Positions 10,056 through 52,673 of a stretch of DNA of 64,000 nucleotides are shown one piece after another. Position 1 is the stretch's first letter; each line of letters opens with the position of its first letter. Made by a program: the position numbers and the translations under genes. Origin of the DNA: a virus. The notes beneath the pieces are model-generated. The model was given only the letters and a program-made list of their open reading frames with translations, ran no database searches and was not told where the DNA came from. Location: positions 64,001-128,000 of the IMG/VR virus record IMGVR_UViG_3300032323_001800; one strand, 5' to 3'.

Positions 10056-10063
10056 TATTTATT
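10056..10063 (-). promoter_or_regulatory. late promoter AATAAATA overlapping the upstream stop codon
   Basis: TAAATA ends 5 nt before the ATG at 10050. Confidence 0.55.
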
Positions 10064-16000: not shown

Positions 16001-19000
16001 ACAAATAACCTACCATGTTGTCAAACCAGGCTCTAGATGCGTCAGCAGAAGTACCAACTGAATAAACTGCAGGATCGTAGGATGTTTTAAATTTTAATTC
16101 TTGTTCAGCGACTGATAAAATTTTTCCGTTTAACGGATCTATTACATCAACGTCTAATAGTTTAATATTTGAATCGGAATCGAATAAAGATAACGATTTT
16201 AATAATGTTAAATCAACTACAGGCTCTTGGCTACGTAACGGTGACCAGGCATTGATATTTTTATATTTTCTAAATGTTTGAACCTTACCTATGACTGAAC
16301 CAAGAAATGCATCTTCCGAAGATGTAAATGCAGGAGATCCTATAATCACTCGATCGTCAAAACATGCTAAAGATTTTCCAAAATTTTCTCCAGTGATTAA
16401 ACCTTCATCAAAAGATTCAGATAATATAAACGTATCACCGTATCTATTATAGATATAAACTTTACCAGTAATTCCTACCGGGTCTCTAAATCTTGTTAGC
16501 AAGTAGTCAAAGTTAGTTTCGCCTCTATCAAAATTTATTAATGTAGATGCTACAGCCGAACCTGCAGTAATGGCTATTGTGTCAGCCGTTGGAGATACTG
16601 ATATTTCGTCTCCGAATCTTTCAAAGAAATCAAAAGAGTAACTTTCTAATCGTTGAATATATTCAAATCTATTATTAACATTTTTAAAGACGAACACAGC
16701 ACCTTTGTCTTTTTCTTTAATGTCGGCATCCGGAGCTGAAACAAATAATAAATTTCCTTCACGGCTTAATACAACCTTAAATCCAAGCTCGTCTCCGGAC
16801 TCTAGATCGTCAGTGATAATATCATTATCGTCGATCGTTTGAACTAGTTCATAAATGTTTTCTTGATTTTTTAGATAAACAAATACTGCTCCAGTATTAT
16901 ATTCAGATGCGTTCGATACCTTTTCCCATACTGTTCCACTAACTGGAAGTTGATTTAAACTTTCAATAGCTAGTAATTTATAATATGTTGGTTGTGCTGA
17001 CTCGACAATTTTTACAACATCGTTACGATTATATTCTTGATAAGACTTCCATGTACCTTTATAATTTTCTAAATCCGCAGTATCGGCAAACGGAGCTCCT
17101 ACTACTAACAACGACGCATCTGAGGACATTGTTGTAGAATATCCATATCGATCTCCTACATTTAATAACTCAGGAGTTTGATCTCCAACCAAACCAACTT
17201 CAATAGATGAACCATCATTCGGATAAGCAGGCTGTATTGGCAATATACCAGCATTGAGAGAATTAACTAATTCCCAACCAACTGTGTCTGTTGTAATCGT
17301 TGTACCGCTATTTTTAAAATACGGAACAGTTGATCTCCAATAGTTATTATTATACCATACTATCGATCCAGTTGCATAATCGTTGGCTGGGTTAAAAATC
17401 CCTACAAAGTTATTATCATCCGATTGTGTCCAATTAATACCGTCAAAACTGTATAGATAAATTCTTCCTTTGCTATCTAACGCACCAGGAGCAGAAATAG
17501 CCATATAATATGCTTCTGATGCTCCTCCTATGTTAGATCCTAAAATTCTAATTTGGTCTCCAACGTTATATCGTGTTCCTCGAACATTAACCGTAGCAGC
17601 ATATCTGCCGTTAGATCTAACCAGTTCAAAAATTGCTCCTGAACCGCTTTGACTAATGTCAGTACCAATAATATCCGAATATGACCCTAACCCTACTGAT
17701 GTTCCTACGAAACTAACTCCGGATTTAGCAACACCTGAGATAGTAAAGTTTCTGATACTGTTATCAATAAACTTCATTGGATTAGCAGATGGCGATGATG
17801 CTGATGTTAAAGTTACAATTTGTTTTGTTAAAGGGTCACTGTAAATTGTAAAAGATGTACTGTTAATAATCTCTTTTACAAAGTACTGGCTTCCTGAAGA
17901 AATCCCGCCGACCGCACTGCCTGTAAAGACAATAGGCATATCAACTCTTAATGTAGCTGTAGATCCTACAACAACCGTTGAGTTAGTTTCAAATGTTCCA
18001 ACAGTGGTTATTGGTAAGTTTGGGCTTACTCTAATTAAAAGATCGTTAGCCGGTGTGTCACCGCCCAGTGTTGTACCCGGAACCAAAATAGTAGATCCCG
18101 ATCTATATTTTGTCAAGTCTCCTAAATTGCCATCCGATGTTGATGTTACATAGGCTTTCCATGGAGTTGCTAAACTTAAAAATGTGCCTGCTGAAACTTC
18201 TTCCCAATATTCAAGATTAGTAGGGAGAATCGGTTCTGATACTTCCCAATAGTCAGTATCAGTTGGTAACACAAATTGTACTTCTTGTATTGATCCATCC
18301 AGTCCATTTTTAACTCTATAGTACGAAGACGATCTAAACGGATACTTAACCACATCTCCTGTATAGTAAGTGGCGTTCGAGTCCCACACACCTCGATCTG
18401 TCTGGGTATCTTTTATACAGCCATAATATCTTAAACCTAATCCTGGAGCAGAATATGAAACAATACTTCTTCCAGTGTATCCCACACCTCTGTTGATTAT
18501 TGCTACTGCGTATGTATTTCTAGTACGTGTTACATTAAACACAGCCTCATTAGTTGGAATAGTGGAGTTAATACCTGTAAGATTAGAATATGTTTCAGAT
18601 CCAATAATTGAACCGCCGGTGTCAATGGCTGTTACTGTAATTAACAAATCGTTTTCTGGAGACGACCCACCTACCTGTGTTCCTAATACATTTATTTGAT
18701 CACCTAACGCATATCTTGTACCGCCGTTTCTCACGGTTACTACATATGTGCCACCGGATTTTGTAATGTTAAACGAAGCGCCATTTCCTGAATCACTGAT
18801 GTCTGTACCACCAATGTTTTGGTATGTGGCATCTTTTAATCCGCTAGTTCCCACAGCATCAACAATAGTAATACCGCCGTTAGGGTCAATTGCTTTAACA
18901 ATTAACGTTACATCACCGCTGGTGCCTTCAATACCTTCTTGTTTTCCGATTGAAACACTGCTACCAAATAGTTCGTTAGCTTCCGGGCGAGGACTGATAA

Positions 19001-22000
19001 TTGTTTTTCTATATGTCCATTGACCTTGTGTAAATTCAAAAATATCAACACATCCCTGTTTAGGGTATCCTGGATTAGTACCTATTAAGTTCTTAGCTGC
19101 AGGTTGTGCTTCATGTAGATCAACTGGGCTCCAGTCATCGCTACTTAGGTTGATTGTGCTGCCGTCACCTAAAATAGGTTTGTTAGCTTTCCATAATTTT
19201 CCTGTGTAAATCACAGTGTCGTTGGTATTATATTCTGCCGAGGTACTATACTGCCCTTTAAATCCAGAAGGAATTCCAGAAGCAGTTGGTGACGCAACAA
19301 GTAACCATCTTCCGTCCGGACTTACCGATAACACAGTTCCGTATGATCCTAATAGCTCAGGTGCAATTTCAAATATAGGACTTAATACTTGACTAGGTAC
19401 TAGGCCGTCTAAACTCTGTGTATAAACAATTACAGCAGAATCTCTCGATGTATCGTTAGAAGCAACTCTAGCACCAGGATTAGACACAATAGTCTGATCC
19501 CTTGACGGAACGTAAGCAACCGCACTGCCCATGCTTGCTGGGAACGAAACACCATATTCTGATATTCCTGTTTTAGAATATTGTTTTGTACGCTGTAATA
19601 CTTCCCAATTTCCGGTAGCATTTTTATCTAACCATACTTTAGAACCTAATGGAAGAATTGAAAAATCTTCCTTTATTAATTCGTCAGTGCTGGATATTCT
19701 CGCTGGCAGGAAAACACCAACATTACAGAAAGAACTTTGATCTATTTCTGGTGGTTCTTCAAATCCCAATACCTCTATAACGATTGTTGTAGTGTTTGAC
19801 GCTTTAATTTTATAAAAACCTGTCAACCCTTTAATATTTGTTAAACCAATAATAGTTCCGGTTGTTAAACGATGTGGTCTGTTAGTTGTTATAACTGCAT
19901 TTCGTTGATCAATGGCCGCAACCGCAATTACTGTTACATTGGTTATTTTATATCGTAAAATATCCCAACCACCCGTTTCATACGTTATCCAAATTACAGA
20001 ACCATCATTAAACTGTGTTACATCGTTTCCGATTAATTCATCAAAATTCTTAATTACAAAATCTACGTCATCGACATTAACATACCCTGCTCCGGAATTA
20101 GGAACAGAAATATTTTTAGTTTGAATAATTTGATTTTTACTATCACCAATTTGATAATTTTGGTCTGATAATACTATGTAATTTTTATATTCATTTTGAT
20201 CAATTGAACGATCATTTAAAATAATAGGTTGAGGATTTAGTTTAAATTGGTCTTTGCCTATTTTAAATTCAATTTCATTAAATTGATCTGTTCCACCAAT
20301 TTGTCCTAATCTAAATGCCCATTCTTCATTTATTTCAATAGCATCGCTATCAACAGAACTTATTTTATCAAATATTTTTTTGATAGAATTGTTAGTTCCT
20401 TTTTCTCTAATAAATCCTTGATATAATCTGTATTGTGTTACATCGTCTTCGGCAAGATCTCGTAGATAATCTCTAGATTGATATCCAATAGAATGTCTAG
20501 CTAATTCTCGCTGACTAGATCCCAACCCTTCCGAATCTAAATCATAAAAGTCTTCAAACTGACTTATCCTATAATCAAAATTTGCTACTAAACCAGTTTC
20601 AGGACGACTATCTAATTTTTCCCAGTTGCTAGGATTAAATTCAGCCTCTCCCGATTGTGCTACTTTGCTTACGTAATTAAATTCTTTATAGGTAGCAATA
20701 TCTCCTAATTTGTAATCAACAAACGGTGACCACGGTTGGATATTGACATCGTCGAATAAAAATCCAGGGCTAGTATAATCGCCATCCCAATCAGTTGTTC
20801 TAAAACCTAAAACTTTGATTCTCTGCTGTCTATATCCTGGACCCTTGTCAAACATGACATCATTGAACATAGTTCTATCAGAAAATACAACTACGTGTTC
20901 TTTTAACACATAGTTAATTCTAGCAAAATATATGCCGTCTCTGATATTAACTGGAGCTATAGCAAATTCGTTGTATCGTCTTATAACATCAATGTTTGCC
21001 GGTAATAATTTAGTTCCGTCGCTCTTTAAAATTGTATATTCATAAAATGAATCTAAAAGGTTATCTGCAACTCCGCCGGTAGATATTAATTTTAATTTAA
21101 TGGCTGCAGGGCTTACTGATAAGATTGCTCCCGGTGCCCAGTTATGACTGGTCCAGAACATAAATTCTTTTGATGTAGTTTCCCAGTTAGCAACTGATTG
21201 AAGTTCGCTGCTGAACTCGTCGAATACAAATCCAAGATCTTTTAATCGTTCTCCGTATCCTAATAAGAAATCAACAACATCTTGAACTGTTTCTAACGCT
21301 GTTCCGTATGATAATCTCTTTAAATCTGTCTTGTCAAAATATGTTCTTTTGGTTGCTTCAATAGCACCAACAAGAGGAATTTGAGTTATTCTAACCCATT
21401 TAGTTGCATCAAACTGGTCTTCCGATGTGTGGGCTGTTACAGATCTAAAAAATTGCTCGTTGTATCTTACAATTATACCTTTGGTATAGAATTGATTGTT
21501 TTGCCACGCAACGTATGTTTCGCTAACACCGCCTACAAATATTTTAGGATCTGCGTTGGTTGGTAACGAAGGATAATATTCAAAATATGTGTTTAGTCGA
21601 TCATATCCTCTAATAATCCATGCTCTAGCCGACTTTTCAAGTATAACTCCGGAATATGTAAGACTCTGTACAGATGATCCGATGTTAAAAAATATGTCAT
21701 AATTTTCTGGAGGTATAAAAACACTGCTTGTAGATGCCTGTGGATTTTTAGAATCTAAAATATATTTCTGTTGTGACTTATCAACAAATCCGCCAATTCT
21801 ATTAGACATGTTAATATCAAAATTTTCTAATTTTTCAATTAATGATGTTTTGTCTTTTAGATCAACTTTTAAATAATTGTCAATATAGTAAAACAATCCA
21901 GACGGAGTAATATCGCCATTAAGGATTTCCAGTAAGTCAGAAATTTTAACAAAATAATTACTGTTAGAACTTACAAGCTGACCTAATTTATTTTTCTTAA

Positions 22001-25000
22001 CTTTAGTTTTATCTAAACTTGCAGGAATAAATTCAAAAGGTCTTAATAAGCACAAAGCAAAAATAACACTGAACGGATAAGCAGAACTTTTTCTCCAAGC
22101 ATACTCTGCCGGAGCGACATCACCAAATTTAAAATCTAGTTGATTATTAAATGTAGAATAATTGTCAAGAACATTTAATAGTAACGGATTTTTTAATTCA
22201 CCGTCTTCATCTGTAGGAATAATATCTAGTAAATTAGATCTCTTATATCTGTCATGCTGGCCGGCTCGTGGGCCTTGACGAATTATACCGTCCTTTAAGT
22301 CTTCCCATAAAATTAAGTTTCCGCTGGTATATGGAGCAGGACCGTATTCATCTTCCCACCATAGTGGTTTTTGTGTAAAGCCCAACATTTCCCAAGGTGA
22401 AATATGTGGTCTGTCAGTATCATATAAAGATAAAAACATACCTCGCCAAAAGCTAGGCAATTCTTCTCGAGTAGTTTTATCGACTACTTGAGAATATGTA
22501 TAAGTGAATGGGTTTGACACTTGATAAAAATTATTACCAAATAGATCAATGTCAGTAGTGGATGCCCATCTTAAAAATTCTTGATTTATTACTGTATTAA
22601 AATTAGACTGTGTAAAGATTCCAGTTTTATAAAATGACGATAATGTTTTATCAATATCAAATGTTTCTTCGTCATATTCAATTTTTATGTTATTATAAAT
22701 TCGTTTTTCTAATTCTAATAATAAATCGTCTCTAAAGTCGTTGAATGCAATTGTTATACTGCCGTCGTGGCCTCTTATTACCTTTTTAGGTTCTAGGTAT
22801 GTAGTATCAACATAGATTTCTGGTTCGTATTTTTTATACATTCCCATCTTGGTAGGTGTGGGAGGTACAAAGTTAAATGCTGTTGAAAAATATTCTTTAA
22901 TTTGAATATTATCGTTTTCATTTAATGGTTTTAAAATTTTAACAAAACCAAACGTAGCATCAAACTCGTAGTCTTTACCGTTAATGCCTTGTTGATTGTT
23001 TATATACACATAGGTTGCTTTCGATGATATTACCGATAGATCAAATTTGTCACCTAAGGAAAACACATTGATACCAGTGTCTTCAACAGTATAATCAATA
23101 GTCGTAAACGCACCAGAACCTACCATGTCAGAATCAACAAATGGTGATTTAATTGTTTTTGCCTGAGAAATAGTTGTTAAAATATCATCAACAAATTTAA
23201 CAGGATCTCCGTTATCATATGGCAATTCTATAGCTAATGTTAAAAAATTATTTTTAAACTTTTCGTATTCAGCTGAAGCAAATCTAATCGAATTTATTAT
23301 ATTTGTTTCTTTATTGCACAACAAATTAATCGACAAAGTTGGAATACCGGAATGTTTTAAAAATCTTCTTCCGTACTGTTCATAATCAATTAAATCTCTT
23401 AAATTGCCGCTACCGGGATATGTTCCTTCAAATCCATCGACTAGCTCAACCATTGATCCTAAATGATCGTTAAGCTGTCCTAAAGTAAATGACTGTAGAT
23501 CTTGATTTAACGGATTTCTTTCAAGACCAAACGGGATTTCATAATAACCATCAACTGGTTCAGCGTCTGAATAAACTTTAAAGGTCACAGTGTCACCTGA
23601 TATCAGTTTATTACTAACAGTTATTTTCTTTTTATTGTTTTCAATAACAGTACTAATAGGAGTTACTAAATTTCCATTAACATAGCAAATTGTTTTATCT
23701 CTAGTAGATGAATTCCAATCACATGCTGTTGAAATTACAACATTGGTATCTTCTAATACTGTAATCGTTTGAATAATTGCCTGCAAATATTTGCTGTCAA
23801 TCAGTGTCCATCCGTTTTCGTATGTGTATTCAGTTAATGATCTATTATTTCTATAATACCCTTTATTCACTAATTCTGTGATAATTTGAAAATTTTCTTG
23901 GTATGAGAAGTTATCACGGTCCCAGTCAAATTCAAACTGGATGTCTCCTGAATTGTTAATATTCAGATAGCTTAATGGAAACTCGAGTTCGGTATCATTA
24001 TTTCCCGTACCAATCACATAACTAATAATTTCTGATCCAGTAAATGACGAAGTGTTGTACTTTGTTAAATCTCCTACAGATACCCCGTCAATGTCAAATA
24101 CATCAAATAGTGGCGGTTGATTTACCTTTGTTTTTTCTTGGCTTCTAATCCATGATTCACCGTTAAAGTGAAACATCTTATTTCTATTTTCTACACCACG
24201 TTTAACAACCAGCCCTTCACCGGGATTAGAAACAGTGTCTGTAGTCTCTATCAAACTAATTTGTCGTCTATTAACAATATTAGTACTAGCTTGTACTGTA
24301 ATAAATTTAACTTCAAATATTTTATTTTTTACTAAAGGATCAGTGTCTGCTGTAAAAAGAATTCGATATCCGTCTGTTAAAGGCTCTCCGTCAATGTTAT
24401 AACCAGATGACCCTTCGATGACTGAAAATATATCAGTAGTAAAGTCGTCAATTAAATCAACACTGGTTTTAGCAACAACGCCATGATTAAACAGTTGAAG
24501 GTCGGCATTAAATTCAATAATTGGTCTTTTTGCTCTTAGATTTTCATCTATTTTTGCATCAGTGTTATTGAGCTCTCCGGTATATTCTAATACAGATCTA
24601 TGGAACCATCTATTATATCTGCTCCATGGATTTTTATCTAAACTAGATCGATTAATTGTGATATAGTCTTTGCTTCTTGGATACGATAGTGATTCATCAA
24701 ACGGTTGGTCATCGAATCCGCCATCGTCAAACAACACTTCTGGATTAGGATTCGAAATAGGTGGAAGTTCAATGGTTTCCCAATTAATTAATCGTATAGC
24801 ATCTCCAACACCCTCGATTACCCAAGATCCTTGTTTATAAATTGAAGGTGATGTTTGTCCTTCAAATTTAACTCTTAGACCATTGGTAAATTTAACTCCG
24901 TTCGAACTAATATATTTTTGCTTGCCTATAACATCTTTCTCAATATCTAAGAAAGTGTTTTCTTTAATTTCAGCGATCCTAAATGTTCCAACTCTATCTC

Positions 25001-25760
25001 GAGTGGTCGAACTTTGATAATATAATAATTCAGGAGCATCGTTAGGTACTTCAAATATAACTTTTCCTACTTGAGTTCCGCTGTTAGTCACTCCCTTGGT
25101 ATAATTTGATTGCTCACCTAATACATTTGAGGTTCTGATAAAAAACGGGTCGCCTGGCGAATTTACGTCAAATTCGTAAGTTTGGCCGCGGTATAAAGTA
25201 ATTGACGGATTTTTCTTAAGTCCGTCTGGATAAAAAATCCACTCTGATGTTCCGCTGGTTCTCACACGGTACGATGATATTGTTTCTCTTGCTTGTCCTT
25301 GAACAGCAACCGAATCAACTCCAACTGGTTGCCAATAATATTCTCTGTAATTAACAAATTTGTCCCAGTCAATAGGAGGAGCCCAAGCATATGAATCATT
25401 GCCTGTAATTTGATCATCTCTTTCTAGACTGTTGCCAAAGAATTTTAATTGATTTTTAAAATCAATATAATCGTTGAATTCAGAGATTCTATTGTTTTTT
25501 CTAACAACTACAGCAGGTTCTAATTGATAAGCATCACGTAATGTATCGGCTCTATCTATATAGACATCAGTCGAGTTAAAAGTTTTTCCGTACTTTCTTC
25601 CAATGTATCCAGATAACTTTTCTAAAGTACCTGGTTGTACAAGAGCGTCTAACGTAGCACCTAAGAATTTTTCATTGGCGTTAGTCTGAAAAATATCAGG
25701 TAACAGTTCAATAGTTCTTCTAATAGGCAATCCGCTAGATTTAAAAACTTTATTTTCCAT
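10062..25760 (-). CDS. giant baseplate wedge protein in the gp7 position (5232 aa)
   Basis: Uninterrupted ORF directly after gp6. Contains a cupredoxin-like segment (ITLYRGQTYEFDVNSPGDPFFI), FG-GAP-like propeller blades, CBM5/12-like W-x6-Y-x2-G-x2-V motifs, GSGA-type repeats and a coiled coil. The gp7 call rests on synteny. Confidence 0.7.
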   Translation of the reverse strand: MENKVFKSSGLPIRRTIELLPDIFQTNANEKFLGATLDALVQPGTLEKLSGYIGRKYGKTFNSTDVYIDRADTLRDAYQLEPAVVVRKNNRISEFNDYIDFKNQLKFFGNSLERDDQITGNDSYAWAPPIDWDKFVNYREYYWQPVGVDSVAVQGQARETISSYRVRTSGTSEWIFYPDGLKKNPSITLYRGQTYEFDVNSPGDPFFIRTSNVLGEQSNYTKGVTNSGTQVGKVIFEVPNDAPELLYYQSSTTRDRVGTFRIAEIKENTFLDIEKDVIGKQKYISSNGVKFTNGLRVKFEGQTSPSIYKQGSWVIEGVGDAIRLINWETIELPPISNPNPEVLFDDGGFDDQPFDESLSYPRSKDYITINRSSLDKNPWSRYNRWFHRSVLEYTGELNNTDAKIDENLRAKRPIIEFNADLQLFNHGVVAKTSVDLIDDFTTDIFSVIEGSSGYNIDGEPLTDGYRILFTADTDPLVKNKIFEVKFITVQASTNIVNRRQISLIETTDTVSNPGEGLVVKRGVENRNKMFHFNGESWIRSQEKTKVNQPPLFDVFDIDGVSVGDLTKYNTSSFTGSEIISYVIGTGNNDTELEFPLSYLNINNSGDIQFEFDWDRDNFSYQENFQIITELVNKGYYRNNRSLTEYTYENGWTLIDSKYLQAIIQTITVLEDTNVVISTACDWNSSTRDKTICYVNGNLVTPISTVIENNKKKITVSNKLISGDTVTFKVYSDAEPVDGYYEIPFGLERNPLNQDLQSFTLGQLNDHLGSMVELVDGFEGTYPGSGNLRDLIDYEQYGRRFLKHSGIPTLSINLLCNKETNIINSIRFASAEYEKFKNNFLTLAIELPYDNGDPVKFVDDILTTISQAKTIKSPFVDSDMVGSGAFTTIDYTVEDTGINVFSLGDKFDLSVISSKATYVYINNQQGINGKDYEFDATFGFVKILKPLNENDNIQIKEYFSTAFNFVPPTPTKMGMYKKYEPEIYVDTTYLEPKKVIRGHDGSITIAFNDFRDDLLLELEKRIYNNIKIEYDEETFDIDKTLSSFYKTGIFTQSNFNTVINQEFLRWASTTDIDLFGNNFYQVSNPFTYTYSQVVDKTTREELPSFWRGMFLSLYDTDRPHISPWEMLGFTQKPLWWEDEYGPAPYTSGNLILWEDLKDGIIRQGPRAGQHDRYKRSNLLDIIPTDEDGELKNPLLLNVLDNYSTFNNQLDFKFGDVAPAEYAWRKSSAYPFSVIFALCLLRPFEFIPASLDKTKVKKNKLGQLVSSNSNYFVKISDLLEILNGDITPSGLFYYIDNYLKVDLKDKTSLIEKLENFDINMSNRIGGFVDKSQQKYILDSKNPQASTSSVFIPPENYDIFFNIGSSVQSLTYSGVILEKSARAWIIRGYDRLNTYFEYYPSLPTNADPKIFVGGVSETYVAWQNNQFYTKGIIVRYNEQFFRSVTAHTSEDQFDATKWVRITQIPLVGAIEATKRTYFDKTDLKRLSYGTALETVQDVVDFLLGYGERLKDLGFVFDEFSSELQSVANWETTSKEFMFWTSHNWAPGAILSVSPAAIKLKLISTGGVADNLLDSFYEYTILKSDGTKLLPANIDVIRRYNEFAIAPVNIRDGIYFARINYVLKEHVVVFSDRTMFNDVMFDKGPGYRQQRIKVLGFRTTDWDGDYTSPGFLFDDVNIQPWSPFVDYKLGDIATYKEFNYVSKVAQSGEAEFNPSNWEKLDSRPETGLVANFDYRISQFEDFYDLDSEGLGSSQRELARHSIGYQSRDYLRDLAEDDVTQYRLYQGFIREKGTNNSIKKIFDKISSVDSDAIEINEEWAFRLGQIGGTDQFNEIEFKIGKDQFKLNPQPIILNDRSIDQNEYKNYIVLSDQNYQIGDSKNQIIQTKNISVPNSGAGYVNVDDVDFVIKNFDELIGNDVTQFNDGSVIWITYETGGWDILRYKITNVTVIAVAAIDQRNAVITTNRPHRLTTGTIIGLTNIKGLTGFYKIKASNTTTIVIEVLGFEEPPEIDQSSFCNVGVFLPARISSTDELIKEDFSILPLGSKVWLDKNATGNWEVLQRTKQYSKTGISEYGVSFPASMGSAVAYVPSRDQTIVSNPGARVASNDTSRDSAVIVYTQSLDGLVPSQVLSPIFEIAPELLGSYGTVLSVSPDGRWLLVASPTASGIPSGFKGQYSTSAEYNTNDTVIYTGKLWKANKPILGDGSTINLSSDDWSPVDLHEAQPAAKNLIGTNPGYPKQGCVDIFEFTQGQWTYRKTIISPRPEANELFGSSVSIGKQEGIEGTSGDVTLIVKAIDPNGGITIVDAVGTSGLKDATYQNIGGTDISDSGNGASFNITKSGGTYVVTVRNGGTRYALGDQINVLGTQVGGSSPENDLLITVTAIDTGGSIIGSETYSNLTGINSTIPTNEAVFNVTRTRNTYAVAIINRGVGYTGRSIVSYSAPGLGLRYYGCIKDTQTDRGVWDSNATYYTGDVVKYPFRSSSYYRVKNGLDGSIQEVQFVLPTDTDYWEVSEPILPTNLEYWEEVSAGTFLSLATPWKAYVTSTSDGNLGDLTKYRSGSTILVPGTTLGGDTPANDLLIRVSPNLPITTVGTFETNSTVVVGSTATLRVDMPIVFTGSAVGGISSGSQYFVKEIINSTSFTIYSDPLTKQIVTLTSASSPSANPMKFIDNSIRNFTISGVAKSGVSFVGTSVGLGSYSDIIGTDISQSGSGAIFELVRSNGRYAATVNVRGTRYNVGDQIRILGSNIGGASEAYYMAISAPGALDSKGRIYLYSFDGINWTQSDDNNFVGIFNPANDYATGSIVWYNNNYWRSTVPYFKNSGTTITTDTVGWELVNSLNAGILPIQPAYPNDGSSIEVGLVGDQTPELLNVGDRYGYSTTMSSDASLLVVGAPFADTADLENYKGTWKSYQEYNRNDVVKIVESAQPTYYKLLAIESLNQLPVSGTVWEKVSNASEYNTGAVFVYLKNQENIYELVQTIDDNDIITDDLESGDELGFKVVLSREGNLLFVSAPDADIKEKDKGAVFVFKNVNNRFEYIQRLESYSFDFFERFGDEISVSPTADTIAITAGSAVASTLINFDRGETNFDYLLTRFRDPVGITGKVYIYNRYGDTFILSESFDEGLITGENFGKSLACFDDRVIIGSPAFTSSEDAFLGSVIGKVQTFRKYKNINAWSPLRSQEPVVDLTLLKSLSLFDSDSNIKLLDVDVIDPLNGKILSVAEQELKFKTSYDPAVYSVGTSADASRAWFDNMVGYLWWDTSTVKWANYNQGDISYKLGGWNSLAYGSSIDVYEWVETEYLPSEWADITVTADAFSVGVSGTPLYPDNSSYSVKENVDILTGRVSSRIYYYWVKDKITLPTNKNFRKIAASSVAQYIQNPLGTGITFAALIDNEKIAVYNPTIAITGNNVSVTIQFYKNSKQINQVHREYQLLTEGVADSLPSPELENKWIDSLIGYDITGKDVPDFKLPTKFKYGLSSRPRQSMFVDRNKATQITLDFINNILKTRPFAEIINTTRLNSFEVAPADVKNLYDRTVETKEELALVSTSKISPAILKANIANGKIDTVDVIEAGYGYRVSPPIIVTGSGSGAILRANIDRLGRVISVTVVNSGAKYLSAALSVRQFAVLVKSDSTVRNYWSIYSWNEKAKEFYRTATQSYNTRNYWTTIDWWAEGFSEKSRITNEIVGLYQESEVNLTIGQLLRIREYGAGNWAVLERTSIENSTILDKYRLVGRSNGTIQINDSFINTESNSTGYDKTTSFDSNGYDQSSAREFRIILESVKNDIFLDDLRVEWNKLFFANIHYAFSEQLYVDWAFKTSFVNAIHNVGNLTQKITYKSDNLPSYQKYIEEVKPYRTKIREYTSRYIRTENTSTSFSDFDVPSVYNPDTNSIEPVKIISTEIDTYPWKYWLDNYKYSVIDIQISNVGSGYKTVPIVVFEGGGGTGASARAFISNGKVSRIVLTNSGTGYISAPTVKLVGGVGTNLSNAATAIAVIGNTKARTFDVSMKFDRVSKSSTFTAKALDEKFKEIQTFTGTGSKTVFELKYPAALDKTKVNVYTKLITDTTTSPGQKLLTGQYSVSIDTTKVNGLTIQVGKLTLNSAPAKTILVTVEYEKNDQSLDSLNRIDKYYNPTDGMIGLEKTVIRDDITQEIIKIDYDYSQLITGIDFGGVVVQGATLDVSGGWDALPWFTEGWDSVDSLNSDFYITADGTTNMFVLPEVPLDGQAINIYLRNSVTGIYERIDDTNYTEFVTVLQGQNLNERRNNLEDQQTTLESQIINQNLIKQQKLNLLNQAQIDRNSANTLLLNKQLEISSIESDITQAENDRGDLQVELSVLNNQKSSIEIQIASTPPTIFVPPSNVIPNPAYQTLVNQLDAIVSAIDDKQTEINDKQDEIDALNVTLDALEAAEAPLILALSNANSALATATTEYNTATQSVVLLEQTLDQVLQNILVLSDAPIDTAVMDTFIGDGSTRSIVIPPAVTIQDGDVLIFRPDTSDGSLSITDANLIDADVSGGLLSSNTTGNLVAPNAINGAYSTATGLTAAEIVIEGDKFISPDQVPAPEENIPGQVLESVSIKVFHSDRQGAPAILSRIYTADGTTILYNIGQTILENSSVIVFVDKVKQEVDVDYTFVSDTQQIRFLTAPINNSLIEIFSISIGGVEILDYREFVGDGSNRYFLTAASYAEAGRVFATVDYSTTPVAFVNSNGVVNNIDKALVEFGIAPPNGSKVSIIVLSGESGTDNSIVRANYQTITVTNTSQRTYAVTDFVELQASATGNVIVELNNKLLRCADTVIQTYDGTNRIVNVGRDPLKTFGGIVQAQVRAYINNIPLIFGIEYEFSAATNSVNVIKQNINHGDVIRVETYEAVQYEIIDNNLVLSNDVILTAGDKIDIIWFDRYSSVDLVKDVRTGGQLNYPLQRAPLGVSYVWVYKNGDRLTPDVDFYIDYPRNTVYLKDSNTEDDEIEIISFATEVYKQPFAFEIFKDILNSHHYNRYTVTDVKLTKELNYYDDEMEVNDATTLSTPQLKLPGIVTINGERIEYLRKVGNVLKDLRRGTLGTSIAITHPVESYVVDVGYREIVPYKESQDRYDFVADGSSEIYTGLPFVPAARKNQQGILVEFTYTNSIPDNFYPCDTIEVFVQGRRLRKDPITVYDSTVGSYSPAGDVTLEAEFSVDNQTNAIRITQTPPAGARITVIKRTGKVWYNQGADEVTTGVTLSQNTTPIAKFLQQRTTKLL

Positions 25761-39193: not shown

Positions 39194-39426
39194 GCACGGA
39201 CAGTCACGATCGAATGATCAAAGCATTTCAAGAATATTTCAAATGGCAAGAGCGATTTGAATACAAAGGCTCAGACGAAGCAGGCATCAAGGCACGATAT
39301 TGGTTATCAGAAATACGTAACGAGGCATCAACTAGGCGTGTAGAAATACAAGATAAAAGAGAACAAAGAAAAGCAGCCAGAAAAGGCATACTAGGCAGAC
39401 CTCCCAAGGTAACTAAAGGTACATGA
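39190..39426 (+). CDS. small basic helical protein, histone H1-like Hc1-type
   Basis: KGSDEAGIKARYWLSEI...RRVEIQ resembles the G.KAAG.RARK...EI pattern of short Hc1-like proteins as I recall it; ATGA overlaps at both ends. Confidence 0.5.
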   Translation: MSTDSHDRMIKAFQEYFKWQERFEYKGSDEAGIKARYWLSEIRNEASTRRVEIQDKREQRKAARKGILGRPPKVTKGT

Positions 39427-39911
39427 CATGGATATATCAGAATCAAACTGTAGAAGAACTACCCGAAGAATGCGTGGGCTTCGTCTATGTCATTGTCAAT
39501 AATATCTCTGGTAGAAAATACATAGGCAAAAAATTAGCAAAGTTTGCAAAAACTACCTACAAAGTAGTCAAACTAAAGAACGGAACTAAGAAAAAGAAAA
39601 AAATTAGAGGCAAAATAGAAAGCGATTGGCGTGATTATTACGGTTCAAACATAGAACTTAATAAGGACGTTGAACAGCTAGGCAAAGAAAACTTCACCAG
39701 AGAAATCATCTATTACTGTAATTCTAAAGCAGAATGCAGTTACATCGAGGCAAGAGAACAATTTAATCGTAAAGTTTTAGAATCTAATGACTGGTACAAC
39801 GGTCATATACAGGTTCGAGTTCATGGCTCTCACATAATAAAATCCCAACTTTTAATAGAATCACAGACAGACCAAAGTACTACACAGGCTCAAGAGAAAA
39901 AGGCAAAATAA
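39423..39911 (+). CDS. GIY-YIG endonuclease
   Basis: GFVY...KYIGKK, Lys-rich hairpin, DWRDYYGS, REII, E..EQF, WYN. Confidence 0.85.
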   Translation: MTWIYQNQTVEELPEECVGFVYVIVNNISGRKYIGKKLAKFAKTTYKVVKLKNGTKKKKKIRGKIESDWRDYYGSNIELNKDVEQLGKENFTREIIYYCNSKAECSYIEAREQFNRKVLESNDWYNGHIQVRVHGSHIIKSQLLIESQTDQSTTQAQEKKAK

Positions 39912-40290
39912 AGCGGTTTTTTGGCTTGCGCAGGCCTAAGTTCGTGCGCTCTAAACCTGGTCAATCGTGGTCACAGGGACGGAATTCCATGCCGCAATGG
40001 TACTCAGCAACTACCCATAATGGATGAAGATCGCTCAAAGCCTGCGATTGTGCTGTTTGAAAAGGAAAAACAAAGGTAAAATGAGGGGAGAGAAACCCCG
40101 GATTATTAGATCAGTTAGCGTTGATTTAATAATTGCCGTCATATAAAGACGCAGCTCGTGGTACAGGATGACCGCCACTGTAATGCTGTAACGCTAAGTG
40201 ATATTGTTCGACTCGGATAATGTTTTTATCTTTGCCCGGCCTGGGCAAAGTGTGACTGAACGATCTGGATAATACTTAAAATGCTTCGCA
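39912..40290 (+). ncRNA. candidate large structured non-coding RNA (family not recognised)
   Basis: No plus-strand ORF longer than about 21 codons. About 46% GC by hand count (161/349 nt, 39912-40260). Long-range helix 39964-39975/40251-40264; 14-bp stem 40101-40114/40121-40134 with G-U pairs; 8-nt pseudoknot 40115-40122/40190-40197; hairpins at 40085-40099, 40137-40151 and 40230-40250. Confidence 0.65.
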
Positions 40291-40328
40291 TACTATAAGT
40301 ACATCAGTATTAAAGAAAGAAACAAAAT

Positions 40329-40372
40329 GTGTTTGAGCGAAGCGATAAACACGAGTGAGCGTAAGCTCACTC
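40329..40372. repeat. two adjacent inverted repeats (GCGAAGC-containing; GTAA-loop)
   Basis: gtgttt..gcgaagc..aaacac at 40329-40352; gagtgagc-gtaa-gctcactc at 40353-40372. Confidence 0.85.
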
Positions 40373-40376
40373 TTAT

Positions 40377-40384
40377 AATAAATA
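40377..40384 (+). promoter_or_regulatory. late promoter AATAAATA
   Basis: Upstream of an AGGA SD and the ATG at 40412. Confidence 0.6.
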
Positions 40385-40411
40385 AGACTATTATCTTGCA
40401 GGAAATATAAA

Positions 40412-41590
40412 ATGAAAATTACTGACTTAATCGTAGAACAACAATTAGATGAAAAGCCTATGGGAGCTCTATCTGGTATAGGAAATAAAATAGCTTCTAA
40501 ATTTGGTAGTGGCAAAGCTATAGGTAAGTTAGATACTGGGAAGATCGCTAACGATTTAAGAAAGCAGTTTGACATATATCTAGGAAAGACTGGAGAACCA
40601 GCTGAACCTCAAGCTATTATTGATTTCTTATCATCAATGGGGTTACCTACTGATGCTGTTAATGCTAGCTCTGCTGCTGCAACAACAACAGCTCCTGCTA
40701 AAGATATGAAATCAACATTGGGTATCGGTAAAAATGCCGGACAACCAATGGCAACACCTAATCAACCTAAACGAGTTGATCCTACATTAGATCCTAGCGC
40801 ACCAATAGCAGCACCAAATCAACCATCAAGAGTTGATCCTACATTAGATCCTGCTGCGGGTGATACAACCAACTACGATATTCCTACCTTCCAACGCAAG
40901 GGCATGGCACCTCCTGTAACACAGCCAATGGATAAAAATAAATTTAATCAATCTGCTCTTAAAGCTAGATTAAAAGCAGGCTCTGGTGCTGGAAAAGTTA
41001 AAACAGGATTTGGTGGTTACAAAGCTGCCGCGGCTGCTAAAGGACTAAAAGCAGGCATGTATGACTCTGTGTCATACGACGATCTTAAACAAGAATTATT
41101 TTTAACAGAAGCACTAAGCGGTGGGCAAATAGATAAAATATTTCTTGCTACAGCACAATTAATGGCCAAACAAGGATTTGCAGGCGGAAATAACGCAGCA
41201 GCACCGGGTTCTAGCGCAGCAGCACCATCCGGCGCATCAAATACAGCAGCACCGGGTCCAGGCAGCAATCCTCAAAGTTTAGCAAAATCATTCTTGCAAG
41301 GATATAAAGATACACCTGGTGGCCAAAAAGGACAATCTAGTGCCTTTAATAAAACACAAGATCCAAACCAAGACTTTGCTGGAAATTTAAATTTCAATCA
41401 ATTGGCAAAACTATTGCCTAACACTGATCAACAAACATTAATCAGAGCACTGCGATTAGTTATTGGTGGTGGAAAATTAAATCAACAGCAGCTAGGTGTG
41501 TTAGGTGTTGCGATGACAGACATTGTTAAAGCAGATGCCCAAACAACTACTAAAATTATGCAGACTTTGAAAAGAATTAGTGCTGAATAA
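40412..41590 (+). CDS. low-complexity protein, probable internal head/ejected protein (392 aa)
   Basis: MKITDLIVE start, L/I-x-E sites, Ala/Pro/Gly-rich linkers, late promoter upstream; function is inferred. Confidence 0.55.
   Translation: MKITDLIVEQQLDEKPMGALSGIGNKIASKFGSGKAIGKLDTGKIANDLRKQFDIYLGKTGEPAEPQAIIDFLSSMGLPTDAVNASSAAATTTAPAKDMKSTLGIGKNAGQPMATPNQPKRVDPTLDPSAPIAAPNQPSRVDPTLDPAAGDTTNYDIPTFQRKGMAPPVTQPMDKNKFNQSALKARLKAGSGAGKVKTGFGGYKAAAAAKGLKAGMYDSVSYDDLKQELFLTEALSGGQIDKIFLATAQLMAKQGFAGGNNAAAPGSSAAAPSGASNTAAPGPGSNPQSLAKSFLQGYKDTPGGQKGQSSAFNKTQDPNQDFAGNLNFNQLAKLLPNTDQQTLIRALRLVIGGGKLNQQQLGVLGVAMTDIVKADAQTTTKIMQTLKRISAE
40773..40852 (+). repeat. 23-bp direct repeat, 57-nt period (RVDPTLDP x2)
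   Basis: gagttgatcctacattagatcct at 40773-40795 and 40830-40852. Confidence 0.9.
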
Positions 41591-52190: not shown

Positions 52191-52277
52191 ATAAAGTATC
52201 TAGAGCGTACTTATAGTAAGTAACTTATGGGGTAACCATCCTCGTAGACCTAGAACGTCAAATTAAGGAGAAACAAA
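52186..52277 (+). promoter_or_regulatory. late promoter GATAAATA (52186-52193) plus structured 5' leader
   Basis: Stems tctag/ctaga (52199-52203/52250-52254), tactta/taagta (52208-52222) and atgg-ggtaa-ccat (52227-52239). Confidence 0.5.
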
Positions 52278-52673
52278 ATGGGACGTCCATTAAGAAAAGA
52301 TATATTAGGTACTGATGTTATTGGTACATTCACAAGTGATACCGGTGTTAGAGTTGATTACCATGACGGTAGTTCTTTAGTAAGCACAGGTATTATCAAA
52401 AAACAACGTGGCGCAAAAACATTTGTATGCGCACCTAACGCAACACCTACAGATACTACATCATTTAGAACTGTTGTATTAACTAATGCTGCTGCTGGAG
52501 CACTAACAAGCGGCCAAATGAGATTAACTGGCTATGTTGGCGGCAACGCTGATTCAGGCCGTGCTCTAGCAAAGATTACAAAACGTGTGGCTGTTGATTT
52601 CAGCGGCAATCGTTATACCTGGGTTCTTGCTAACGATTCAACAAACGATTATATTGTTTTAACAGCTATCTAA
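52278..52673 (+). CDS. probable virion structural protein (131 aa)
   Basis: Strong AAGGAG SD, late promoter, beta-rich, located after the capsid gene. Confidence 0.6.
   Translation: MGRPLRKDILGTDVIGTFTSDTGVRVDYHDGSSLVSTGIIKKQRGAKTFVCAPNATPTDTTSFRTVVLTNAAAGALTSGQMRLTGYVGGNADSGRALAKITKRVAVDFSGNRYTWVLANDSTNDYIVLTAI

What the first reader, a model, noticed from the sequence alone, without database searches (positions are those of the whole stretch)
39912..40290. Candidate novel large structured ncRNA with a long-range closing helix and a pseudoknot
Seen: this is the only large non-coding gap in an otherwise densely coding window, about 46% GC by hand count. atcgt-ggtcaca (39964-39975) pairs with tgtgact-ga-acgat (40251-40264), closing a ~300-nt domain. 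Inside it are a 14-bp stem with three G-U pairs (40101-40134), whose loop region ttagcgtt (40115-40122) is the exact complement of aacgctaa (40190-40197). Also inside: gggg/cccc (40085-40099), cgtc/gacg (40137-40151), gcagc/gctgt enclosing gtgg/ccac, a T-loop-like gttcgactc (40206-40214) and a 9-bp hairpin (40230-40250). cgcaggc (39929-39935) can pair with gcctgcg (40040-40046) as an alternative to local hairpins. The G-U pairs point to a plus-strand RNA. Established: phages carry large ornate RNAs (GOLLD, ROOL) of mostly unknown function. I cannot match this one to a family from memory.
Basis: partly seen in the sequence, partly recalled or inferred. Interest (0 to 1): 0.85.

Follow-up and report, generated by a model that had tools for sequence, protein, structure and literature searches.

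The report
Full-length twin-box phage RNA (Polynucleobacter-1)
The gene-free gap in this uncultured freshwater T4-like phage encodes a real, roughly 460-base, triple-knotted non-coding RNA: its first third is the catalogued but unexplained Polynucleobacter-1 motif, and the uncatalogued rest carries one short word twice, for a reader I could not find.

Summary
The gap (39912-40411) has 45% GC against 36.5% for the window. It holds a plus-strand structured RNA.

Rfam places 39923-40058 in Polynucleobacter-1 (RF01718, 95 bits, cut-off 37). The rest, to about 40375, is not in Rfam but is equally conserved in hundreds of IMG/VR contigs.

On 73 homologues, 77 pairs in 18 helices are 94% paired, against 37-42% in slid controls. 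62 pairs change on both sides.

- **Not supported:** the long-range closing helix, the T-loop and the CGCAGGC/GCCTGCG alternative.
- **New here:** two further pseudoknots.

Two 13-nt boxes (40210-22 and 40262-74) have identical 7-nt cores in 153 of 154 loci across 11 variants, with at least 48 paired changes. No partner was found.

The RNA always ends the gp55-gp47-gp46 operon. The gene just upstream is usually the GIY-YIG nuclease, but in over 50 contigs it is an unrelated PDDEXK protein. The nuclease therefore looks like a neighbour, not a partner.

Function is unknown. This scan has already reported the same family on other genomes.

The parts
39912..40375 (+). Full conserved non-coding RNA, about 464 nt. 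It starts at the base after the GIY-YIG stop codon and ends with a terminal hairpin.
   Evidence: Conservation profile over 91 homologues. Alignment A1. Pair counts. No conserved ORF after the stop codon.
39923..40058 (+). 5' domain, the Polynucleobacter-1 motif (Rfam RF01718). Helices are 39928-32/39945-49, 39956-64/39969-78, 39987-90/39997-40000, 40005-10/40050-55, 40011/40026 and 40029-34/40044-49.
   Evidence: cmscan gives 95.3 bits against a gathering score of 37, E 3e-19, model positions 1-141 of 141. Helices 2-8 are 89-100% paired and most pairs change on both sides.
39913..39995 (+). Pseudoknot PK0. The leader just after the stop codon (39913-17, GCGGT) pairs with the loop of the third hairpin (39991-95). 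It lies outside the Rfam model.
   Evidence: MI ranks 19 and 30. Helix 1 is 84.5% paired and 2 of 3 pairs change on both sides. In the window's own subfamily the register is shifted by one column.
40085..40099 (+). Hairpin H1 (GGGG...CCCC).
   Evidence: Helix 9, for example 40087/40098 with GC 34, UA 14, CG 12.
40101..40134 (+). Long hairpin H2, whose loop forms PK1.
   Evidence: Helices 10 and 11. All 10 pairs change on both sides and 92-93% of cells are paired.
40115..40197 (+). Pseudoknot PK1. The H2 loop 40115-21 (UUAGCGU) pairs with 40191-97 (ACGCUAA).
   Evidence: Helix 12: 7 of 7 pairs change on both sides and 97.4% of cells are paired. MI ranks 17, 24 and 31.
40138..40172 (+). Pseudoknot PK2. 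40138-42 (GUCAU) pairs with 40168-72 (AUGAC), which lies in the loop of the inner hairpin.
   Evidence: Helix 13: 4 of 5 pairs change on both sides and 95.3% of cells are paired.
40151..40189 (+). Nested helices H4 (40151-55/40185-89) and H5 (40158-62/40174-78). The nearly invariant loop GGUAC.GG...ACCGCC lies here.
   Evidence: Helices 14 and 15. MI ranks 1, 15, 23 and 25. The loop is also kept in the divergent variant L292.
40210..40222 (+). Box A (GACUCGGAUAAUG). The 7-nt core is 40215-21.
   Evidence: Identity covariation with box B.
40230..40250 (+). GC-rich hairpin H6 between the two boxes.
   Evidence: Helix 16. 40233/40247 shows UA 44, AU 11, CG 8.
40262..40274 (+). Box B (GAUCUGGAUAAUA). 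The 7-nt core is 40267-73.
   Evidence: The core is identical to box A in 153 of 154 loci. The boxes differ only by transitions at -3 to -1 and at +8.
40281..40320 (+). Variable zone with a small UUCG-loop hairpin (AUGCUUCGCAU). Its length and sequence differ between relatives.
   Evidence: Occupancy falls to 0.2-0.4. See also alignment A1.
40326..40372 (+). 3' module. A stem (40330-33/40349-52) encloses the conserved loop GAGCG..AGCGA. It is followed by the terminal hairpin GAGUGAGC-GUAA-GCUCACUC (40353-72).
   Evidence: Helices 17 and 18. In 25 of 89 relatives a T4-type late promoter, TATAAATA, follows directly, and it occurs nowhere else within -600 to +700.
39423..39911 (+). Neighbouring gene: a 162-aa stand-alone GIY-YIG nuclease (SegE-like). 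It is not part of the RNA.
   Evidence: Pfam PF19835, E 5e-31. In other contigs a PDDEXK protein or another gene takes its place.

Best explanation
This is the full-length form of the orphan Polynucleobacter-1 RNA. It is a non-coding RNA of about 460 nt in aquatic T4-like phages.

**Shown**
- It is transcribed on the plus strand.
- It folds into at least 18 helices with three pseudoknots.
- It holds a fixed genomic place, as the last element of the rightward gp55-gp47-gp46 gene block, facing the leftward baseplate-hub genes.
- It does not depend on the GIY-YIG gene beside it.
- Its 3' half is more widely kept than the catalogued 5' domain. This half comprises the GGUACCGG..ACCGCC pseudoknot core, the twin boxes around a GC hairpin, and the terminal module.

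**Inferred**
- It is made by read-through of the early/middle operon, because no promoter consensus lies in front of it.
- Its 3' end is set by the last hairpin.
- It then acts in trans as a folded scaffold. This scaffold holds out two equivalent segments with no conserved pairing partner, the twin boxes, on either side of a hairpin. One bivalent reader, or two copies of one reader, binds them.
- The boxes differ from each other only by transitions. They are identical at every position that shows transversions. This pattern fits both boxes base-pairing to the same kind of partner strand, one carrying GGG and U opposite the transition sites.

That partner is not in the cassette and not in a complete phage genome.
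For: **It is a known family plus an uncatalogued extension**
- The Rfam match is at full length.

**It is conserved and widespread in phage contigs**
- 595 or more contigs were found through the GIY protein, and nearly all of the 80 fetched carry the RNA blocks.
- At least 50 of 80 contigs found through the PDDEXK protein carry the RNA, and none of them has a GIY gene.

**It is structured**
- 94.4% of cells are paired, against 37-42% in slid controls.
- 62 of 77 pairs change on both sides.
- The covariation score is 0.473 against 0.05-0.08 in slid controls, and 0 of 500 shuffles reach it.

**It is not coding**
- Frames after the stop codon and in front of the boxes are not kept open.

**It has a fixed genomic place**
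- gp46 lies upstream on the same strand in 88 loci, and within 4.5 kb in 63 of 74 loci with enough flank.
- The baseplate hub lies downstream on the opposite strand in 65 loci.

**It is independent of the nuclease**
- The upstream gene can be a PDDEXK protein, a 344-aa ORF or a 151-aa ORF.
- GIY homologues in cultured phages have no such gap and no Rfam hit.

**The twin boxes covary by identity**
- 153 of 154 loci have identical cores, over 11 variants.
- On the protein tree there are at least 22, 9, 9 and 8 paired changes at core positions 1, 2, 5 and 7.
- They are kept in variants whose 5' domain is different.

**It belongs to phages, not bacteria**
- A specific pattern found only two short contigs of one MAG among 185,579 species genomes.
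Against: - There are no expression data, so the transcript ends and its stability are inferred.
- No reader of the boxes was found. The searches covered the cassette, 1.2 kb on each side, all held loci, the window's own 188-kb record and a 354-kb record rated 100% complete.
- A common partner would need three-way changes about 48 times, which is demanding.
- The terminal hairpin has only a weak U-tract on the plus strand. The terminator scan flagged it only on the minus strand.
- MFE z-scores of the single sequence are unremarkable.
Confidence: 0.55

Rival explanations
1. Nuclease-RNA system. The RNA is the dedicated partner of the small nuclease encoded just upstream, acting as its guide, scaffold, inhibitor or antitoxin. 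The nuclease has no DNA-binding domain of its own.
For: - The RNA starts within about 10 nt of the stop codon of the upstream gene in both contexts.
- The GIY-YIG protein is a bare catalytic domain of about 140 aa plus a short tail.
- A GIY-YIG gene precedes the RNA in about 100 of the loci found through the RNA.
- In the other direction, nearly all close GIY relatives are followed by the RNA.
- Two different nucleases in the same slot could be read as an interchangeable effector.
Against: - The slot is filled by unrelated proteins. These are a PDDEXK protein that PHROGs names a RusA-like resolvase, and a 151-aa protein with no family. A 344-aa ORF can also lie between the PDDEXK gene and the RNA.
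- The GIY family is common in cultured cyanophages and other T4-like phages (495 records) without any RNA gap.
- No guide-like segment matches anything.
- The variable box positions have no complement nearby.
- The adjacency is explained by fixed synteny at the end of the gp46 operon.
Confidence: 0.1
2. Purely cis-acting operon end. The RNA is a 3'-UTR structure that stabilises the gp55-47-46 transcript. It also terminates or insulates transcription where the rightward early operon meets leftward or late transcription.
For: - It always lies at the end of the rightward block, facing the baseplate-hub genes.
- It ends with a hairpin that is followed by a late promoter in 25 of 89 loci.
- The hairpin scores as a terminator on the minus strand.
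- Weinberg et al. 2010 rated the motif as probably cis-regulatory (PMC2864571).
Against: - About 460 nt with three covarying pseudoknots, nearly invariant loops and identity-covarying boxes is far more than stabilisers or terminators need.
- Sequence conservation of the loops points to specific contacts.
Confidence: 0.2
3. DNA-level element. The direct repeats around an inverted repeat, next to the recombination genes, act as an origin, a recombination hotspot or a nuclease target, and not as RNA.
For: - It lies next to gp46/gp47 (SbcCD-like) genes.
- It has 13-bp direct repeats about 5 helical turns apart, flanking a GC-rich palindrome.
- Identity between two sites is what recombination cores or template switching require.
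Against: - Strand-specific G-U pairs and compensatory changes occur in 62 pairs, including three pseudoknots. This indicates a folded single strand of plus polarity.
- The boxes keep fixed transition differences, which argues against gene conversion.
- No one-box deletion forms were seen among the loci examined.
Confidence: 0.05
4. Translated element. The boxes read as sense codon + UAA/UGA (NNA-URA). Matched codons about 50 nt apart around a hairpin recall the take-off and landing sites of T4 gene 60 ribosomal bypassing.
For: - All 11 core variants read NNA followed by UAA or UGA.
- Spacing is 47-60 nt with a hairpin in between.
Against: - No frame is kept open in front of box A. The median is 7 codons and the minimum is 1.
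- The spacing is not a multiple of 3.
- The landing codon would itself be followed by the same stop.
- The frame after the GIY stop codon is not conserved.
Confidence: 0.01

Closest known systems
Polynucleobacter-1 RNA motif (Rfam RF01718; Weinberg et al. 2010, Genome Biol 11:R31, PMC2864571)
   Same: - 39923-40058 matches the whole 141-position model at 95 bits.
- The paper's supplement says most examples lie downstream of one gene family with possible homology to a cyanophage P-SSM2 gene. That agrees with the GIY-YIG neighbour seen here.
- The samples are freshwater and estuarine.
   Different: - The published motif is 141 nt, has no function and was 'not detected in any sequenced purified phage'.
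- Here it is the 5' third of a phage RNA of about 460 nt.
- There is an extra leader pseudoknot outside the model and about 320 nt of conserved uncatalogued structure.
- Relatives replace this 5' domain while keeping the 3' half.
Large 'ornate' RNAs of phages and prophages (GOLLD RF01998, ROOL RF03087)
   Same: It is a large, intricately folded, phage-borne RNA of unknown function, found by comparative analysis.
   Different: - No Rfam match to either, even at E up to 10.
- It is shorter.
- It has a different genomic setting, the end of the gp46 operon and not tRNA clusters.
- The twin boxes have no counterpart known to me in those RNAs. That statement rests on my own knowledge.
Free-standing nuclease genes next to RNA genes in T4-like phages (for example segB among the T4 tRNA genes; my own knowledge)
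   Same: A small GIY-YIG gene sits directly beside a conserved RNA gene, and different nuclease families alternate in the slot.
   Different: - No homing has been shown.
- Almost no RNA copies without an upstream small gene were seen, so the patchy distribution typical of homing genes is missing.
- The PDDEXK protein may be an ordinary resolvase of the operon.
cow-rumen-2 RNA (Rfam RF02947)
   Same: A weak match at 40101-40196 shares UUAGC, GCCG.CA and ACAGGAUGACC.
   Different: The match scores 23 bits against a cut-off of 66. It is not reproduced in 20 relatives scanned at E up to 0.1. I treat it as chance or very remote.

Membership tests
Polynucleobacter-1 (Rfam RF01718) | Covariance-model score at or above the gathering score, over the whole model | tested here: met
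   95.3 bits against 37, model positions 1-141 of 141, E 3e-19.
Polynucleobacter-1 (Rfam RF01718) | The model's helices are kept by compensatory changes in homologues | tested here: met
   Helices 2-8 are 89-100% paired. For example, 40009/40051 shows CG 41, UA 20, AU 8.
Polynucleobacter-1 (Rfam RF01718) | Lies downstream of the GOS11034 / PSSM2_218-like gene family (Weinberg 2010 supplement) | tested here: inconclusive
   The upstream GIY-YIG protein has homologues in 495 phage records, mostly cyanophages. I did not check that PSSM2_218 itself is one of them.
cow-rumen-2 (Rfam RF02947) | Score at or above the gathering score | tested here: not met
   23.2 bits against 66. No hit in 20 relatives.
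GOLLD / ROOL / other Rfam large RNAs, group I introns | Any covariance-model match | tested here: not met
   No such hit at E up to 10 in 39800-40500, and none at gathering score in the window.
RNA-guided or RNA-partnered nuclease module | One nuclease family obligately linked to the RNA | tested here: not met
   A GIY-YIG gene, a PDDEXK gene, a 151-aa ORF or a 344-aa ORF precedes the RNA. GIY homologues occur without the RNA.
RNA-guided or RNA-partnered nuclease module | A variable guide segment with a matching target | tested here: not met
   No complement to the variable box positions in the cassette, the held loci, the window's own record or a complete 354-kb genome. Host genomes could not be tested.
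Translational bypass element (T4 gene 60 type) | An open reading frame that delivers ribosomes to the take-off codon and continues after the landing codon | tested here: not met
   The median open frame in front of box A is 7 codons. The landing codon is followed by the same stop.
Type III toxin-antitoxin RNA (ToxI-like) | Tandem array of full-length identical repeats upstream of the toxin gene | tested here: not met
   There are only two 13-nt boxes, they lie downstream of the gene, and the flanks are not repeated.

The most novel reading that the evidence does not exclude
The twin boxes are two copies of one recognition word, through which the phage RNA base-pairs with, or is bound by, a host factor that differs between hosts. 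On this reading the RNA is a programmable host-directed sponge or decoy. Its word is retuned in both copies each time the target changes, which happened at least 48 times in this family. A still bolder version is that whichever nuclease sits upstream is aimed or restrained by it.
Probability: 0.08. Interest if true: 0.85.

Novelty: new variant of a known kind. Interest (0 to 1): 0.6.

Why it matters
- **An orphan motif gains a home.** Polynucleobacter-1 has been in Rfam since 2010 with no function and no organism beyond one bacterium and some metagenomes. It now appears as one optional 5' domain of a much larger RNA. That RNA is a fixed feature of a large clade of uncultured aquatic T4-like phages, seen in hundreds of contigs.
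- **It suggests where to look for function.** The more widely conserved part is the uncatalogued 3' half. Any search for the function, and any Rfam model, should centre there.
- **The twin boxes are an unusual signal.** Two words are kept identical through dozens of independent changes, and ordinary RNA base-pairing does not explain this. The signal gives a direct handle for experiments: single-box against double-box mutants, and pull-downs.
- **It removes a tempting false lead.** The RNA-guided GIY-YIG nuclease idea is weakened, because an unrelated protein occupies the same slot.

Tried and rejected
1. **Cultured phages.** blastn of the gap and its flanks against 50,697 phage records found no match.
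2. **First bacterial pattern scan.** It was too loose and returned only chance hits in unrelated taxa. A stricter pattern found two short contigs of one MAG.
3. **Cis partner for the boxes.**
   - MI against all cassette columns found none above background.
   - Exact complements within 1.2 kb on either side: none.
   - A G-U-tolerant scan picked only the invariant UGUUUGA at 40052-60. That is about what chance gives and it does not covary.
4. **Trans partner for the boxes.**
   - The predicted common strand (complement of the core + GGG + complement of positions -4 and -5) is absent from all held loci, apart from the antisense of box A itself.
   - It is absent from the window's own record.
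   - In four large records, one rated 100% complete, only G-U-rich hits appeared (11, against 6 for the reversed-pattern control) and no Watson-Crick match.
5. **Coding readings.** Read-through after the GIY stop codon, a small ORF ending at box A, and gene-60-like bypass are all rejected. A coding target of the boxes is also rejected, because no frame makes the changes synonymous. That last argument is mine and rests on the variants.
6. **Stems enclosing the boxes.** Own pairings are hardly better than cross-sequence pairings, at -1.8 against -1.2 kcal/mol for box A, with no difference for box B.
7. **Antiparallel pairing of box A with box B.** This fails for the variant cores, by inspection of the variants.
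8. **CsrA-type GGA sites.** More than a third of the cores lack GGA (AGA, GCA, ACA, GAA).
9. **cow-rumen-2 kinship.** Not reproduced in relatives.
10. **Mobile cassette idea.** The RNA's position is syntenic, not scattered.
11. **tRNA or tmRNA.** ARAGORN finds none in the window.

Full report
**What is in the window.** The window is part of a 188-kb IMG/VR record of an uncultured T4-like phage, estimated about 53% complete. The gene order around the finding is as follows:
- gp55-like late sigma factor
- gp47-like and gp46-like (SbcD/SbcC-like) nuclease subunits
- a 2OG-Fe(II) oxygenase
- an 86-aa ORF
- a 162-aa stand-alone GIY-YIG protein at 39423-39911 (Pfam SegE_GIY-YIG, E 5e-31)
- the 500-nt gap at 39912-40411
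- a 392-aa ORF of no known family
- a baseplate-hub gene on the other strand

The gap has 45.4% GC against 36.5% for the window.

**Identity of the 5' third.** cmscan against Rfam 15 places 39923-40058 on the plus strand in Polynucleobacter-1 (RF01718). The score is 95.3 bits against a gathering score of 37, covering model positions 1-141 of 141. The only paper in the library that names this motif is Weinberg et al. 2010. Its supplement says that:
- the 3' half is not always detected;
- most examples lie downstream of one gene family possibly related to a cyanophage P-SSM2 gene;
- none had been seen in a purified phage.

Nothing else in the gap reaches a family threshold. A 23-bit match to cow-rumen-2 (cut-off 66) at 40101-40196 was not reproduced in 20 relatives.

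**Relatives.**
blastn shows that the DNA downstream of the Rfam match is conserved in most of them at 72-96% identity. A per-column profile shows unbroken conservation from 39911 to about 40290, a variable zone at 40291-40320, and a second conserved block at 40321-40372.
- *Found through the GIY protein.* 595 or more contigs encode a close relative of the GIY protein. Nearly all of the 80 fetched carry the RNA blocks behind the gene, and most of the missing blocks are at contig ends.
- *The Rfam domain is not universal.* Rfam finds its motif in only 13 of 20 of these loci. The others, such as L292 and L248, have a different 5' domain. L292 keeps the GGUACCGG..ACCGCC element, and both keep the two boxes and the 3' module.
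- *Cultured phages.* They have GIY homologues, with Methylophilales phage Melnitz the closest at 47% identity. These are often annotated 'NAD synthetase', apparently by mistake. There is no gap and no RNA behind them.
- *Bacteria.* A specific pattern found the RNA in only two short contigs of one MAG among 185,579 species genomes. This is therefore an RNA of phages.

**Structure.** Single-sequence folding is unremarkable, with z-scores of -1.8 to -1.35. The comparative evidence is strong. I aligned 73 sequences that are less than 93% identical (A1) and ranked column pairs by corrected mutual information. The helices this recovered were then counted with the dedicated tool:
- 77 pairs in 18 helices were counted.
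- 94.4% of cells are paired, against 37-42% when the partners are slid by 1-3 columns.
- 62 pairs change on both sides.
- The covariation score is 0.473 against 0.05-0.08 in slid controls, and no shuffle out of 500 reaches the observed values.

Three helices are pseudoknots:
- **PK0** joins the leader right after the stop codon (39913-17) to the loop of the third hairpin (39991-95). It lies outside the Rfam model.
All 7 pairs are compensatory.
- **PK2** joins 40138-42 to 40168-72.

Frequent G-U pairs fix the strand as plus. Half of it pairs in only 24-66% of sequences. In the other half the variable positions break instead of compensating, and 39971 covaries with 39961 inside the Rfam stem. 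The CGCAGGC/GCCTGCG alternative and the T-loop are also not supported.

**Not coding.** The frame that is open after the GIY stop codon in the window (55 codons) is not kept in relatives, where the median is 15 codons. The position of the stop codon relative to the RNA also varies.

**The twin boxes.** Mutual information also flagged pairs of columns 52 nt apart that covary by identity and not by complementarity.
- The 7 nt after ACUC (40215-21) and the 7 nt after AUCU (40267-73) are identical in 153 of 154 loci, over 11 variants such as GGAUAAU, AGAUAAU, GCAUAAU, GGAUGAU and AGAUGAA.
- On a tree of the neighbouring protein, the four variable core positions change at least 22, 9, 9 and 8 times, each time in both boxes.
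- Positions -5 and -4 are also identical.
- The boxes differ from each other consistently at -3 to -1 (CUC against UCU) and at +8 (G against A), and always by transitions.

My inference is that this fits two sites which both pair with the same kind of strand, one carrying G opposite the pyrimidines and U opposite the purine.

I could not find that strand. It is not in the cassette, in the flanks, in any held locus, in the window's own record, or in a 354-kb record rated 100% complete.

The cores read as a sense codon followed by UAA or UGA, which recalls T4 gene 60 bypassing. However, no frame leads into box A and the spacing (47-60 nt) is not in frame, so I reject a translational reading.

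No conserved stem encloses either box. The boxes look like exposed segments on either side of hairpin H6.

**Relation to the nuclease.** I first read the invariable GIY-RNA adjacency as a sign of a functional pair. Notes from earlier reports of this scan claimed that the nuclease is only a neighbour, so I tested this.
- Among loci found through the RNA, L120 has a PDDEXK protein in the slot (Pfam PF24608, E 3e-28; PHROGs names it a RusA-like resolvase). L098 has a 151-aa protein with no family.
- Searching with the PDDEXK protein gave 80 loci. At least 50 carry the RNA with its twin boxes downstream, none has a GIY gene, and in some a 344-aa ORF lies between.
- The RNA's position is fixed. gp46 lies upstream on the same strand in 88 loci, and the baseplate hub lies downstream on the opposite strand in 65.
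- The T4 late-promoter consensus occurs only right after the terminal hairpin, in 25 of 89 loci, and never in front of the RNA.

The RNA is therefore the last element of the gp55-gp47-gp46 block. Whatever small gene sits before it varies.

Function remains unknown. My best reading is a trans-acting scaffold that presents two identical words to one reader, and the weaker rivals are listed above. The same 'twin-box / extended Polynucleobacter-1' family has already been reported by this scan on many other genomes. My results were obtained independently up to and agree with those reports.

Noticed in passing
window 52207-52280 (+): A second Rfam match above threshold: freshwater-2 RNA (RF02980), 58.1 bits against a cut-off of 49.9. 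It lies just upstream of the 131-aa ORF at 52278-52673.
   Followed up: no
L120:13755-14273 (-), and L324-L403: A PDDEXK protein (Pfam PF24608; PHROGs names it a RusA-like resolvase) takes the place of the GIY-YIG gene directly upstream of the RNA. This is seen in at least 50 IMG/VR contigs, and none of them has a GIY gene.
   Followed up: yes
L292:1918-2350 and L248:1925-2420: These are variants of the RNA whose 5' domain is unrelated to Polynucleobacter-1 and gives no Rfam hit. Both keep the twin boxes and the terminal module. L248 has a new box core, ACAUGAA, again identical in both boxes.
   Followed up: partly
window 40145 with 40233/40247: Position 40145 covaries with the H6 base pair 40233:40247. 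It is complementary to 40233 in 85% of sequences and identical to 40247 in 85%. This could be a base triple or an alternative pairing. The neighbouring positions do not support a full alternative helix.
   Followed up: partly
window 39423-39911 and GenBank records: Homologues of this GIY-YIG protein in many cyanophage records are annotated 'NAD synthetase'. PHROG 447 carries the same name. The Pfam match is to the SegE GIY-YIG nuclease domain, so this looks like a propagated misannotation.
   Followed up: no
window 10062-25760 (-): There is a single ORF of 5232 aa on the minus strand, followed by ORFs of 1169 aa and other large sizes, in the structural region.
   Followed up: no
window 40353-40372: The terminal hairpin GAGUGAGC-GUAA-GCUCACUC was flagged as terminator-like only on the minus strand. 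It may stop transcription coming from either direction at this junction.
   Followed up: no
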